DNA of 1,450 nucleotides from Naegleria gruberi (lineage: Eukaryota), in NCBI GenBank assembly GCA_000004985.1, contig GG739420.1; one strand, given 5' to 3'. The notes beneath the pieces were generated by a model. It was not told the DNA's origin. It searched no databases and saw only the letters and a program-made list of their open reading frames with translations. How positions within the stretch are numbered: position 1 is the stretch's first letter; the number at the start of each line of letters is the position of its first letter. The position numbers and the translations under genes were made by a program. Shown one piece after another: positions 171 through 1,450 of this stretch.

Positions 171-178
171 GTTTACTT
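171..178. repeat. Left copy of the 8-bp target-site duplication gtttactt.
   Basis: It is identical to 1009-1016 and lies directly outside the left TIR. Confidence 0.6.
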
Positions 179-210
179 CAGGGGGGCGGAAAGTGAAGAA
201 AAATGTTGAG
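179..210. repeat. Left terminal inverted repeat of the element (16-bp perfect core plus an 11-bp subterminal block).
   Basis: See the mobile_element entry. caggggggcggaaagt (179-194) and aaaatgttgag (200-210) are mirrored at 993-1008 and 966-976. Confidence 0.6.
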
Positions 211-329
211 TAAAGGAAAAAATGAACAATAAACAAATATTTTGTAATCCGTAGTTTATTTTTGAGTTTGACATTTTTTGCAGCAAGAAAAGTAACTCAA
301 TGAATTCATACACTATTAAACTTTGTAAT

Positions 330-421
330 CAGCTACCACGAAATGGTAGAATTATTTAAATTAAATCGTCTTTTTTAACAGTAAACAAGATTTAGAACGA
401 TTTGAGAATAGCTATTTTTTT
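330..421 (+). repeat. Internal direct subrepeat, copy A (~92 bp). It is bounded by cagctaccacgaaa at its 5' end and gatttgagaatagctattttttt at its 3' end.
   Basis: The 14-nt block cagctaccacgaaa (330-343) recurs exactly at 515-528. The 23-nt block gatttgagaatagctattttttt (399-421) recurs at 583-605 with one mismatch. Spacing is conserved at 55 versus 54 nt, but the middle sequence has diverged. Confidence 0.5.
334..350. repeat. Short perfect hairpin: ctacca-cgaaa-tggtag (6-bp stem, 5-nt loop) inside subrepeat copy A.
   Basis: ctacca (334-339) is the exact reverse complement of tggtag (345-350). In copy B the 3' arm has degenerated (cgaaagaaaggtta), so the hairpin is present in only one copy. 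Confidence 0.35.
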
Positions 422-514
422 GTTTTTGCTCATATCTCAAGAACGAATGTTGGTTATCAACCTCAAACTAGTAAAGTAACAACCAAGCGAAAAACACTGA
501 TTTTTAAAATTACG

Positions 515-605
515 CAGCTACCACGAAAGAAAGGTTAAAATGTTTCATATCTTCAAATATTGGAGTAAATGCAATTTAAAATGATTTGAGGATAGCTATT
601 TTTTT
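515..605 (+). repeat. Internal direct subrepeat, copy B (~91 bp), paralogous to 330-421.
   Basis: See copy A. The shared end blocks are cagctaccacgaaa and gatttgagGatagctattttttt. Confidence 0.5.
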
Positions 606-965
606 AATTCACCATATTTATTGTTTTTGAAACTTCCTAATCAGTCAATATTTTTATGGCTCAAAATTTAAATAAGAAATTTACTTGTTCACAACATCTG
701 CTTCATAAAAACAAATTATTCCAGGACAAGTAATCTATTAACATATATAATAATGCAATAAAATCTATACAATATTATTATATATTATGTTCGTCCCAGA
801 ATGGACTAGTTTGGTTTAGTTTCTCTTAAAATAGATTATTTATTTAATATTTAAATCAATAATAGTAAAATTCAAGTAGTTTATGATAAGTTATGAAGCG
901 ATTGTAGTTTAGCATTCTATATTGATTGTAAAAACATATATCAACTTGGAATCACTTTGAAGAAT

Positions 966-1008
966 CTCAACATTTTCGCTGGGCTGATACCAACTTTCCG
1001 CCCCCCTG
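966..1008. repeat. Right terminal inverted repeat of the element.
   Basis: The reverse complement of 966-1008 reads caggggggcggaaagt-tggtatcagcccagcg-aaaatgttgag. This matches the left end except for one indel of 8 versus 16 nt. Confidence 0.6.
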
Positions 1009-1016
1009 GTTTACTT
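1009..1016. repeat. Right copy of the 8-bp target-site duplication gtttactt.
   Basis: It is identical to 171-178 and lies directly outside the right TIR. Confidence 0.6.
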
Positions 1017-1040
1017 TCGCTGGCGTTGTCAAAATTGTTC

Positions 1041-1048
1041 TATAAATA
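1041..1048 (+). promoter_or_regulatory. TATA box (TATAAATA) of the RWP-RK gene core promoter. The predicted TSS is ~1073-1085, followed by a CA-rich ~50-60 nt 5' leader.
   Basis: An exact match to the plant-type TATA consensus ctaTATAAATAc lies 84-91 bp upstream of the first in-frame ATG. The interval between the TATA box and the ATG contains no ATG in the gene frame (the only ATG there, at 1067-1069, is out of frame) and is C/A rich (acaacagcacacaacatctcccacc), as is typical of plant 5'UTRs. Confidence 0.55.
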
Positions 1049-1131
1049 CATCCGTACAAAAAACACATGGTAAAAAAAATGTTCAAAACAACACCGTACC
1101 TATTAACAACAGCACACAACATCTCCCACCA

Positions 1132-1450
1132 ATGTCCTTCATTCACTACAATCCACTGGATGGAACTTCACCAAAGAAGAAGCAATTAACATTGGATGAA
1201 CTGAAGTCCGTTCTTCACTTAAGCCAAGAGCAAGCTGCTAAAGTACTTGGTACATCTTCTTTCAAACTTCGCTCTTTATTCAAGAAGCATAGAGAGGAGC
1301 TTTCTATGGTTAGATGGCCAACACAAAAGGCTAGACAACAAATGCTAACCAATAACAACAACATCATAGTGAAGGAAGAAGAAGAATTTCCTAGAGATGA
1401 AAATGACTTTCCAATCTTTAAAAAATCTCTCATATACAAGCAACAAATCA
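1132..1450 (+). CDS. 5' part of an RWP-RK domain transcription factor gene (3'-truncated by window end). Translation: MSFIHYNPLDGTSPKKKQLTLDELKSVLHLSQEQAAKVLGTSSFKLRSLFKKHREELSMVRWPTQKARQQMLTNNNNIIVKEEEEFPRDENDFPIFKKSLIYKQQI...
   Basis: By hand translation, frame 1 (positions = 1 mod 3) is open from the in-frame TGA at 985-987 to the window end. The first in-frame ATG is at 1132, and no stop follows through 1449. Residues ~18-70 match the RWP-RK domain consensus (L.L.DL.K..HL...EAAK.LG......LK.......RWP..K), including the diagnostic RWP tripeptide at residues 61-63. GC content rises and sequence complexity increases relative to the upstream AT-rich DNA. A TATAAATA box lies 91 bp upstream. The ORF track missed this ORF, presumably because it has no stop inside the window. 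Confidence 0.8.
   Translation, partial: MSFIHYNPLDGTSPKKKQLTLDELKSVLHLSQEQAAKVLGTSSFKLRSLFKKHREELSMVRWPTQKARQQMLTNNNNIIVKEEEEFPRDENDFPIFKKSLIYKQQI

What the first reader, a model, noticed from the sequence alone, without database searches (positions are those of the whole stretch)
1132..1450. Real gene is on the + strand and absent from the ORF track: a divergent RWP-RK domain protein with the domain at the extreme N-terminus
The only ORF in the supplied track (minus strand, 1215-1439) is antisense to a plus-strand frame that encodes a recognisable RWP-RK domain. The plus-strand ORF was presumably omitted because it runs off the window without a stop. The domain occupies residues ~18-70, immediately after a short basic stretch (SPKKKQ, possible NLS). 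In characterised plant RWP-RK proteins the domain is central (NLP/NIN-like) or C-terminal (RKD). An N-terminal placement would therefore be an atypical architecture. Alternatively, upstream exons could exist, but the TATA box 91 bp upstream and the in-frame stop at 985 argue that 1132 is the true start. After the domain comes low-complexity sequence (NNNN, KEEEE), consistent with an activation or disordered region.
Basis: partly seen in the sequence, partly recalled or inferred. Interest (0 to 1): 0.6.

Follow-up and report, generated by a model that had tools for sequence, protein, structure and literature searches.

The report
Naegleria RWP-RK gene start, already annotated
The plus strand at 1132-1450 is the start of a real gene for an RWP-RK-type DNA-binding protein of the amoeba Naegleria gruberi, but near-identical proteins are already in public databases and this family is known to be large in Naegleria, so the finding is correct and ordinary.

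Summary
The plus-strand frame from ATG 1132 is open to the window end (106 codons). Residues 18-68 match Pfam RWP-RK (PF02042) at E 1.8e-7, 31.4 bits against a 29.3 cut-off.

The source is not a plant. The 106 residues are identical, apart from the length of an Asn run, to the N-terminus of 370-371-aa "predicted proteins" of Naegleria gruberi (XP_002680601, XP_002668673, XP_002672069, XP_002668189). Those gene models start at the same Met.

Relatives keep the same order: a short F-H-x-Y-N/D-P motif, then the RWP-RK domain, then about 250 conserved residues with no known domain. The N-terminal placement is therefore real.

It is not remarkable in context. Published tables list 39 RWP-RK proteins in N. 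gruberi. In N. fowleri the domain starts anywhere from residue 0/11 to 812.

The domain is a divergent subtype. It has RWP-TQK instead of RWPxRK, four extra residues before RWP, and KLRS-LF in place of TLKRRF. A profile comparison with Naegleria RWP-RK domains gives 99.4% probability.

The "in-frame stop at 985" lies inside an 830-bp hAT-like non-autonomous transposon (179-1008). It has perfect 16-nt terminal inverted repeats and an 8-bp target duplication, and ends 33 bp upstream of the TATA box.

The parts
1132..1450 (+). First 106 codons of a protein-coding gene, open at the window end. It is the N-terminus of a roughly 368-aa Naegleria gruberi RWP-RK family protein.
   Evidence: Translation. 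It is 100% identical, except for a run of 4 Asn instead of 6 or 7, to residues 1-108 of P0001 (XP_002680601 / XP_002668673, 370 aa), and likewise matches P0009 and P0010.
1138..1158 (+). Conserved N-terminal motif F-(I)H-Y-N-P-L, residues 3-9, which precedes the domain in all N-terminal family members.
   Evidence: Alignments A3 and A6. P8 is invariant, and F3, H and Y/F are conserved in 5-6 of 6 sequences.
1183..1335 (+). RWP-RK domain, residues 18-68. Predicted helices are 21-26, 32-39 and 43-52 (+54-57). RWP is at residues 61-63 (nt 1312-1320), followed by TQK instead of xRK.
   Evidence: Pfam PF02042 at 31.4 bits, E 1.8e-7. hhalign against N. fowleri RWP-RK domains gives 99.4%, E 2e-21. 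The AlphaFold2 model has pLDDT of about 91 for residues 21-60.
1351..1362 (+). Asn run (AAT AAC AAC AAC, residues 74-77) in a low-complexity linker. Its length differs between gene copies.
   Evidence: The window has 4 Asn, P0001 and P0010 have 6, and P0009 has 7.
1041..1048 (+). TATAAATA, 91 bp upstream of the ATG. It is a candidate core promoter element and has not been tested.
   Evidence: Read from the sequence. No transcript data are available.
1067..1189 (+). Upstream ORF of 40 codons (ATGs at 1067 and 1079, in the +1 frame) that overlaps the main ATG. It matters only if transcription starts upstream of it.
   Evidence: No family match.
179..1008 (.). An 830-bp non-autonomous DNA transposon (MITE-like, hAT-like) inserted in the upstream region. 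It has perfect 16-nt terminal inverted repeats, CAGGGGGGCGGAAAGT at 179-194 and its complement at 993-1008. It contains the in-frame stop at 985.
   Evidence: Inverted repeat I1 and reading of the ends. No ORF longer than 46 aa lies inside. An 8-nt inverted repeat plus an 8-nt target duplication occurs in only 2 of 2000 shuffles, whereas the observed pair is 16 + 8 nt.
171..178 (.). Left copy of the 8-bp target-site duplication, GTTTACTT.
1009..1016 (.). Right copy of the 8-bp target-site duplication, GTTTACTT.
1215..1439 (-). Antisense ORF of 74 aa, the only ORF in the supplied track. It is judged spurious.
   Evidence: It has no family match (best E 0.032) and lies antisense to a frame with a 100% database match.

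Best explanation
Bases 1132-1450 are the 5' end of a protein-coding gene of Naegleria gruberi, or a nearly identical strain. It belongs to the large Naegleria expansion of RWP-RK transcription factors.

The protein is about 368 aa. It starts at ATG 1132, opens with a short conserved F-H-Y-N-P-L motif and a basic patch, and then carries a three-helix helix-turn-helix domain of the RWP-RK type at residues 18-68. The remainder lies beyond the window: a low-complexity Asn/Glu linker, a conserved FP-x-F/Y-x-K/R-S-L-x-Y ... P-F-T-S ... L-P motif, and a conserved C-terminal region of about 200 residues with no known domain.

The most likely mechanism is inferred, not shown. The N-terminal domain would bind DNA sequence-specifically through its third helix, as RWP-RK domains are thought to do in plants and algae. 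The C-terminal module would supply regulation, dimerisation or effector contacts.

This copy is one of at least five near-identical copies or alleles. It has a hAT-like miniature transposon inserted 124 bp upstream of the ATG and 33 bp upstream of the TATA box.
For: Shown:
- The open frame and the Pfam RWP-RK hit above the gathering score.
- 100% identity over the aligned residues to N. gruberi predicted proteins whose models start at the same Met.
- The database's precomputed annotation already assigns PF02042 to that protein.
- Profile-profile comparison of the window's subfamily with published N. fowleri RWP-RK domains gives 99.4% probability and E 2.1e-21 over 50 columns, and includes the four-residue insertion type.
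- The same N-terminal architecture and C-terminal region occur in relatives P0003/P0011/P0012, P0014+P0006, and in locus L008. P0003 and P0011 are called as single uninterrupted genes.
- AlphaFold2 predicts three confident helices at residues 21-52, with pLDDT of about 91.
- All top structural neighbours are HTH DNA-binding domains of the LuxR/GerE/NarL and LysR types, though the scores are weak. A profile search of PDB sequences gives a weak hit (E 0.047) to an NtrC-family (Fis-type) HTH.

Context: RWP-RK is the third largest transcription-factor family in Naegleria (PMC8296547 Table S3).
Against: - The Pfam score is borderline: 31.4 bits for the fragment and 28.7 for the full-length paralogue, against a cut-off of 29.3.
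- The name-giving RK is absent (RWPTQK), and the TLKRR stretch of the third helix reads FKLRSL. DNA binding could therefore be altered or lost.
- No transcript, transcription start site or expression evidence could be obtained.
- The C-terminal region could not be modelled (pLDDT 36.9), so its role is a guess.
- With at least five near-identical copies and a transposon next to the promoter, this particular copy could be silent or a recent pseudogene beyond the window end.
Confidence: 0.82

Rival explanations
1. This copy is a non-functional duplicate: a pseudogene, or a copy silenced by the transposon. Its intact-looking 5' end would reflect only recent duplication.
For: At least five near-identical versions exist: the window, two contigs carrying P0001, P0009, and P0010, the last on a contig of only 2389 nt. 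The window's version with 4 Asn is not among the deposited proteins of the cluster. An 830-bp transposon ends 33 bp upstream of the TATA box. A relative from a metagenome carries in-frame TAA and TAG codons in the conserved C-terminal region, so decayed copies of this family may exist.
Against: All 106 codons are intact. They are identical in protein sequence to the annotated copies except for a microsatellite-type change in Asn-run length. The TATA box and about 115 bp of upstream sequence are left undisturbed by the insertion.
Confidence: 0.12
2. The true start lies in an upstream exon, so the RWP-RK domain is not at the extreme N-terminus.
For: The frame stays open for 48 codons upstream of the ATG (988-1131). 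One AG (1111-1112) could serve as a splice acceptor. Other family members carry 8-30 more residues before the F-H-x-Y-N-P motif. A relative has an intron elsewhere in the gene.
Against: - There is only one AG in the whole 144-nt stretch, and no clear pyrimidine tract precedes it.
- The deposited N. gruberi models and the 62%-identical P0002 begin at the same Met-Ser.
- P0003 and P0005 share their own MPK start just before the motif.
- P0003 and P0011 are called as uninterrupted genes.
- Even with extra residues, the domain would still be N-terminal.
Confidence: 0.05
3. The domain is a generic helix-turn-helix that only resembles RWP-RK by chance or convergence, so the protein is not a true family member.
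For: The Pfam score is borderline. RK is missing and the recognition-helix residues diverge. Weak hits to other HTH families appear, such as Xre-like and NtrC/Fis-type.
Against: hhalign gives 99.4% and E 2e-21 against Pfam-called Naegleria RWP-RK domains, end to end, including the VLHLSQ-x-A, LG-S and RWP blocks and the same four-residue insertion. Intermediate sequences link the two: P0004, which has three RWP-RK stretches scoring 66.4 bits in total and a canonical RWPRRRR, and N. fowleri P0007. Both were found directly by phmmer with the window protein.
Confidence: 0.03
4. The minus-strand ORF 1215-1439 (74 aa) is the real gene.
For: It is the only complete ORF of that size inside the region.
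Against: It has no family match. It is Ser/Leu-rich and of low complexity, as expected for the antisense of a Glu/Lys-rich frame. The opposite strand has a 100% match to an annotated protein.
Confidence: 0.01

Closest known systems
Naegleria gruberi predicted proteins XP_002680601 / XP_002668673 (EFC47857 / EFC35929, UniProt D2V5U5; NAEGRDRAFT_76407), XP_002672069 (NAEGRDRAFT_59275), XP_002668189 (NAEGRDRAFT_54907)
   Same: The sequence is identical over the 106 window residues apart from the Asn run, and the start codon is the same. The collection's precomputed annotation already gives them PF02042.
   Different: The window has 4 Asn where these proteins have 6 or 7, so it is a further copy, allele or strain variant. 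None of these proteins has a name beyond "predicted/uncharacterized protein". No paper in the searchable library mentions their identifiers.
The Naegleria RWP-RK transcription-factor expansion catalogued by Herman et al. 2021 (PMC8296547, Table S3)
   Same: It has the same Pfam domain and the same VLHLSQ-x-A ... LG-S ... RWP blocks. Many N. fowleri members share the four-residue insertion before (R/K)WP. One N. fowleri gene, g3092, also has the domain at residue 0/11.
   Different: The window's subfamily replaces the invariant S-T-L-K-R-R-F/Y of the N. fowleri domains with x-K/Q-L-R-S/T-x-F. It also has its own N-terminal F-H-x-Y-N/D-P motif and a conserved C-terminal region of about 250 aa without a Pfam match. 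No N. fowleri protein with that C-terminal region was found.
Plant RKD proteins and Chlamydomonas/volvocine MID and VSR1 (small RWP-RK regulators of gamete or egg-cell identity)
   Same: They carry a single RWP-RK domain as the only recognisable domain and lack the PB1 and GAF-like modules. They are presumed sequence-specific transcription factors (PMC7399023 and PMC10629530, seen, plus general knowledge).
   Different: In RKD and MID the domain is C-terminal and keeps RWPxRK without the four-residue insertion. Here the domain is N-terminal, reads RWPTQK, and has the insertion. The lineage is also different (Discoba versus Archaeplastida).
NIN-like proteins (NLP/NIN) of plants
   Same: An RWP-RK DNA-binding domain.
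   Different: NLPs have an N-terminal nitrate-responsive region and a C-terminal PB1 domain, with RWP-RK in the middle (PMC7399023). No PB1 or other Pfam domain is found in the full-length protein here.
hAT-superfamily non-autonomous transposons (MITEs). This entry concerns the upstream element, not the gene.
   Same: An 8-bp target-site duplication, short perfect terminal inverted repeats that begin CAGGG (the YARNG pattern I recall for hAT ends), small size (830 bp), and no coding capacity. PMC12730594 states that 8-bp duplications are usual for hAT.
   Different: No transposase or other copy was available for comparison. Other superfamilies such as Zisupton/KDZ also make 8-bp duplications, so the superfamily call is provisional.

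Membership tests
RWP-RK domain family (Pfam PF02042) | Match to the family HMM at or above the curated gathering score (29.3 bits) | tested here: met
   The window fragment scores 31.4 bits, E 1.8e-7, residues 18-68 to profile 1-47 of 49. The extended fragment scores 30.6 bits. This is borderline: the full-length paralogue P0001 scores 28.7 bits with this Pfam release, although the collection's precomputed annotation lists PF02042.22 for it.
RWP-RK domain family (Pfam PF02042) | Homology to accepted family members shown independently of the Pfam model | tested here: met
   hhalign of the window-subfamily profile (A6) against eight N. fowleri domains called RWP-RK in PMC8296547 (A5) gives 99.4% probability and E 2.1e-21 over 50 aligned columns. 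phmmer with the window protein also finds P0004 (three RWP-RK stretches, 66.4 bits in total) and N. fowleri XP_044559374.
RWP-RK domain family (Pfam PF02042) | The name-giving motif R-W-P-x-R-K | tested here: inconclusive
   RWP is present at residues 61-63, but it is followed by T-Q-K rather than x-R-K. The RK is variable or absent in the whole subfamily (TKT, KQS, MNR, VHK). It is also absent in Pfam-called N. fowleri members (RWPQF, KWPSY, RWPGQ). In Naegleria the full motif therefore does not delimit the family.
RWP-RK domain family (Pfam PF02042) | Helix-turn-helix fold of about 50 residues | tested here: inconclusive
RWP-RK domain family (Pfam PF02042) | Sequence-specific DNA binding and transcription-factor activity | not testable with these tools
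   This needs PBM, DAP-seq, EMSA or reporter assays.
NIN-like proteins (NLP) | C-terminal PB1 domain and N-terminal nitrate-responsive (GAF-like) region flanking a central RWP-RK | tested here: not met
   The full-length P0001 and P0003 have no Pfam hit other than RWP-RK at E <= 0.1. The domain is at residues 18-68 of 370.
RKD / MID-type RWP-RK proteins | RWP-RK domain in the C-terminal part with canonical RWPxRK | tested here: not met
   The domain is N-terminal and the motif is RWPTQK.
hAT-like non-autonomous transposon (upstream element 179-1008) | 8-bp target-site duplication directly flanking terminal inverted repeats | tested here: met
   GTTTACTT lies at 171-178 and 1009-1016, directly outside perfect 16-nt inverted repeats. 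An 8-nt inverted repeat plus an 8-nt duplication occurs in 2 of 2000 dinucleotide shuffles.
hAT-like non-autonomous transposon (upstream element 179-1008) | Multiple copies in the genome, and an autonomous partner encoding a hAT transposase with matching ends | not testable with these tools
   N. gruberi genomic DNA is not in any searchable collection. The two exact hits to the 16-mer in viral contigs are chance matches in unrelated GC-rich sequence.

The most novel reading that the evidence does not exclude
The window's subfamily could be a lineage-restricted class of regulators, apparently heterolobosean. Its members combine the N-terminal F-H-x-Y-N-P motif, an RK-less RWP-RK domain with an altered third helix, and a conserved C-terminal module of about 250 residues that has no Pfam, PDB-sequence or confident structural match. 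Under this reading the C-terminal module is a new domain that couples an unknown signal to an RWP-RK DNA-binding head. RWP-RK proteins set gamete or mating identity in green algae and plants, and Naegleria is suspected of cryptic sex. The several near-identical but distinguishable copies could then mark a differentiation or mating-related regulator. One copy's regulation could also be altered by the promoter-proximal transposon.
Probability: 0.12. Interest if true: 0.55.

Novelty: already known. Interest (0 to 1): 0.18.

Why it matters
It matters little beyond correct annotation.

- **Track artefact.** The supplied ORF track missed the real gene only because the ORF runs off the window.
- **Already recorded.** The gene is in GenBank and UniProt with the RWP-RK domain assigned, and the RWP-RK expansion in Naegleria is published.
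- **Modest value added here:**
  - The organism is identified, which removes the plant-based "atypical architecture" argument.
  - A small, rare subfamily is delineated. Only 8 cluster representatives among 1.84 billion matched. It has a distinctive recognition helix and an uncharacterised C-terminal region.
  - A clean hAT-like miniature transposon insertion next to the core promoter is recognised. It could serve as a marker for distinguishing copies or alleles and as a natural test of promoter requirements.

Tried and rejected
1. A word-indexed protein search with the 106-aa fragment found nothing. Only the exhaustive search found relatives.
2. Fetching N. gruberi genomic DNA for the annotated copies failed. 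P0001, P0009 and P0010 are not on record as gene positions. I therefore could not compare upstream regions or check whether the transposon is present in the other copies.
3. Scans of metagenome contigs found no relatives. The two DNA hits, L002 and L003, match only the GRVANGFKK back-translated pattern itself. The viral contig scan also found none.
4. The two exact matches to the 16-nt inverted-repeat sequence in viral contigs (L006, L007) are chance hits in GC-rich sequence with no further similarity.
5. The full-length structure prediction was unusable for the C-terminal region (mean pLDDT 36.9), so it was not used for fold search. The afdb50 library was unavailable.
6. PDB sequence searches gave no hit for the C-terminal region and only weak HTH hits for the domain.
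7. Rfam and tRNA scans of the window found nothing.
8. The minus-strand ORF, the upstream ORF and ORF 967-1146(-) have no family matches.
9. I considered whether the multi-copy gene could be a transposase, given an N-terminal HTH plus an unknown C-terminal domain. Nothing supports this: there is no DDE or other catalytic match, and the neighbouring transposon ends lie upstream of the gene rather than around it.
10. I considered stop-codon reassignment for the in-frame TAA and TAG in relative L005. It is unlikely, because the neighbouring 274-codon ORF on the same contig has none.
11. The window's domain sequence is not listed in the supplement of PMC8296547. Its per-gene sheets, as far as read, cover N. 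fowleri.

Full report
**1. What the sequence shows**

- The plus-strand frame starting at ATG 1132 runs without a stop to the window end, giving 106 codons: MSFIHYNPLDGTSPKKKQLTLDELKSVLHLSQEQAAKVLGTSSFKLRSLFKKHREELSMVRWPTQKARQQMLTNNNNIIVKEEEEFPRDENDFPIFKKSLIYKQQI.
- The frame is open back to TGA 985-987 and has no in-frame ATG upstream of 1132.
- The ORF lister omits this frame because it runs off the window, and lists only the antisense 74-aa ORF at 1215-1439.
- TATAAATA lies at 1041-1048, exactly 91 bp before the ATG.
- ORF length alone is not strong evidence. At least 106 stop-free codons occur in 7-21% of shuffled windows. The whole 154-codon open stretch occurs in 0.2-1.4%.

**2. The domain call**

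- Pfam PF02042 (RWP-RK) matches residues 18-68 at E 1.8e-7 and 31.4 bits, against a gathering score of 29.3.
- All other Pfam hits are far below their cut-offs.
- The antisense ORF, the upstream ORF and the other local ORFs match nothing.

**3. Identity of the gene**

- The word-indexed search found nothing.
- The exhaustive search of 1.84 billion cluster representatives found only eight proteins.
- The best hit, P0001, is 100% identical (E 5e-60) and 370 aa long. It is a Naegleria gruberi "predicted protein": EFC35929.1/EFC47857.1, XP_002668673/XP_002680601, UniProt D2V5U5, NAEGRDRAFT_76407. PF02042 is already assigned to it in the precomputed annotation.
- Two more deposited N. gruberi proteins are near-identical: P0009 (371 aa, NAEGRDRAFT_59275) and P0010 (370 aa, NAEGRDRAFT_54907).
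- All of them start with the same MSFIHYNPLDG.
- The window differs only in having 4 Asn where they have 6 or 7.
- The window is therefore from N. gruberi or a nearly identical strain. This fits its roughly 22-40% G+C. It represents a further copy or allele of an already annotated gene.
- No plant is involved.

**4. Is the domain really N-terminal?**

Evidence that it is:
- (a) The deposited gene models start at ATG 1132.
- (b) P0002, 62% identical and from an unrelated read set, also starts MS-LHFNPLDGTS.
- (c) P0003, P0011 and P0012 (378-379 aa, 40% identical over the full length) carry the domain at residues 29-79. P0003 (1137 nt) and P0011 (1140 nt) are called as uninterrupted genes.
- (d) P0005 and its contig L008 show the same order. 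The contig has an MPK start like P0003, and the C-terminal region follows in another frame.
- (e) All six N-terminal members share a F-H-x-Y-N/D-P motif a few residues from the start.
- (f) Between the stop at 985 and the ATG there is only one AG dinucleotide (1111-1112) that could act as a splice acceptor.

The stop at 985 lies inside a transposon (section 8). When the insertion is removed in silico, the frame still meets a stop (TAA 129-131) with no in-frame ATG, so the conclusion holds.

No transcript evidence was available.

**5. Is that architecture unusual?**

- Relative to plant NLP and RKD proteins it is unusual, but that is the wrong comparison.
- Herman et al. 2021 (PMC8296547) list RWP-RK as the third largest transcription-factor family in Naegleria. 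There are 39 proteins in N. gruberi and 26-27 in the N. fowleri strains (Table S3).
- In the part of their N. fowleri table that I read, domain starts range from 0/11 (g3092) through 67-474 to 812 (g4131).
- N. fowleri P0007 has the domain at residues 281-326 of 356. A second RWP-RK gene lies 2.7 kb downstream of it.
- N-terminal placement is thus one of many arrangements in this genus.

**6. What kind of RWP-RK domain is it?**

- Compared with the N. fowleri domains, the window's subfamily keeps (I/L)-x-x-VLHL-x-Q-x-x-AA-x-x-LG-x-S and L-x-x-RWP.
- Like about half of the N. fowleri domains, it has four extra residues between helix 3 and RWP.
- It replaces their invariant S-T-L-K-R-R-F/Y with x-K/Q-L-R-S/T-x-F.
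- It lacks the RK (RWP-TQK here; TKT, KQS, MNR and VHK in relatives). Many Pfam-called N. fowleri domains lack RK too.
- A profile-profile comparison of the subfamily with the N. fowleri domains gives 99.4% probability and E 2.1e-21 over 50 columns. Homology is therefore not in doubt despite the borderline Pfam score (28.7 bits for the full-length P0001).
- AlphaFold2 on the 106 residues with ten homologues gives a confident three-helix unit: helices 21-26, 32-39 and 43-52, with pLDDT of about 91 for residues 21-60.
- A profile search of PDB sequences gives a weak hit to an NtrC-family (Fis-type) HTH (E 0.047).

**7. The rest of the protein (outside the window)**

- After the Asn/Glu-rich linker, relatives share a motif FP-x-F/Y-x-K/R-S-L-x-Y-x(3)-K-K/R-x(3)-P-F/L-T/S-S-x(2)-P-x-I-x-F/Y-LP.
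- A conserved C-terminal region of about 200 residues follows (LEKD, GRVANGFKK, RK-LGY, EFPYLP-F, W-T-N-YS, GW-H-RN-VYRL-V-HN-IT-VTVSFGM).
- This region has no Pfam hit and no PDB sequence hit. It could not be modelled (pLDDT 36.9).
- Its function is unknown. Regulation or dimerisation is a guess.

**8. The upstream region**

- An exact 16-nt inverted repeat, CAGGGGGGCGGAAAGT at 179-194 and its complement at 993-1008, is flanked directly outside by the same 8-mer GTTTACTT at 171-178 and 1009-1016.
- Even the weaker combination of an 8-nt inverted repeat plus an 8-nt duplication arises in only 2 of 2000 shuffles.
- The 830 bp between the repeats are AT-rich and have no ORF above 46 aa.
- They contain an internal duplicated segment (about 323-421 versus 508-605).
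- This is the signature of a non-autonomous DNA transposon. The 8-bp duplication and the CAGGG ends point to hAT. Other superfamilies also make 8-bp duplications (PMC12730594), and no other copies could be examined.
- The element ends 124 bp upstream of the ATG and 33 bp upstream of the TATA box. The core promoter region is left intact.

**9. Mechanism, and what is shown versus inferred**

- Shown: the gene, the domain homology, the conserved N-terminal placement, and the predicted helical unit.
- Inferred from what is known about RWP-RK proteins in plants and algae: nuclear, sequence-specific DNA binding through the third helix, and a role as a transcription regulator.
- Unknown: the target sites, the biological process, and whether this particular copy is expressed.
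- Herman et al. report one RWP-RK gene upregulated in mouse-passaged N. fowleri. That is a different gene.

**10. Verdict**

- The claimed interest does not hold. The organism is Naegleria, and the protein is already deposited with the domain assigned. RWP-RK proteins with many architectures are a published feature of the genus.
- What remains open is the uncharacterised C-terminal module of this small subfamily and the role of any Naegleria RWP-RK protein.
- Interest is low (0.18) and the finding counts as already known.

Noticed in passing
window 171-1016: An 830-bp non-autonomous DNA transposon (179-1008). It has perfect 16-nt terminal inverted repeats, CAGGGGGGCGGAAAGT, and an exact 8-bp target-site duplication, GTTTACTT. 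It looks hAT-like and ends 33 bp upstream of the gene's TATA box.
   Followed up: partly
window 323-421 and 508-605: An internal direct duplication inside the transposon, with about 184-185 bp spacing. It includes the exact 14-mer CAGCTACCACGAAA and a 42-nt block at 83% identity. These may be subterminal or internal repeat units of the element.
   Followed up: partly
window 974-982 and 1015-1023: The 9-mer TTTCGCTGG occurs just inside the right end of the transposon. It occurs again spanning the right target-site duplication and the flank. This could be chance or a trace of the insertion history; it is unexplained.
   Followed up: no
window 1067-1189: Two upstream ATGs (1067 and 1079) open a 40-codon ORF in the +1 frame that overlaps the main ATG at 1132. 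Whether it lies in the mRNA depends on the unknown transcription start site.
   Followed up: no
window 1351-1362; proteins P0001, P0009, P0010: The Asn run (AAT/AAC codons) has 4 residues in the window and 6, 6 and 7 in the deposited N. gruberi proteins. P0001 sits on two contigs. There are thus at least five near-identical copies or alleles of this gene, on scaffolds from 2.4 kb to 696 kb. Whether they are haplotypes or paralogues could not be resolved.
   Followed up: partly
L005 (ENA ERZ27237359 k141_428597), frame 1, about 970-1100 and about 1-190: A metagenomic relative (P0014) has in-frame TAA and TAG codons at sense positions inside the conserved C-terminal region (FPG*DALYQFIEEEA*FEDGWEH). 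It also seems to have an intron inside the RWP-RK domain, ending ...GATGAG just before SRYQLRT. A pseudogene or assembly errors are more likely than a variant genetic code, because the neighbouring 274-codon ORF has no such codons.
   Followed up: partly
L004 (ENA ERZ27237304 k141_233984), from about 1205 to the end: This contig matches L005 exactly for 289 nt. Its tail is then the reverse complement of a later part of the same gene (131-nt match), so the contig is a palindromic assembly chimera. The last residues of P0006 (HCEYAPIHLQTLLLLQ) are therefore not real.
   Followed up: partly
L008 (NCBI GCA_021155195.1, JAJNPV010000005.1) 324-1380: A full-length relative is split over two frames. 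The N-terminal RWP-RK part is at 324-641 in frame 3 and the C-terminal region at 682-1374 in frame 1. This implies a short intron or a frameshift near 641-682. The source organism of this assembly was not identified.
   Followed up: partly
L001 (N. fowleri VFQX01000051.1) 5001-6192 and 8897-9583: Two RWP-RK genes of the KWP type with the four-residue insertion lie 2.7 kb apart on the same strand. They flank a GRF zinc-ribbon/uracil-DNA-glycosylase gene. They correspond to g10375 and g10377 in PMC8296547.
   Followed up: no
protein P0004 (Logan assembly, 246 aa): A single small protein carries three consecutive RWP-RK-like domains (YWP, RWPRRRR, PWP), with a total of 66.4 bits to PF02042. A tandem triple RWP-RK arrangement seems unusual. 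The organism is unknown.
   Followed up: no
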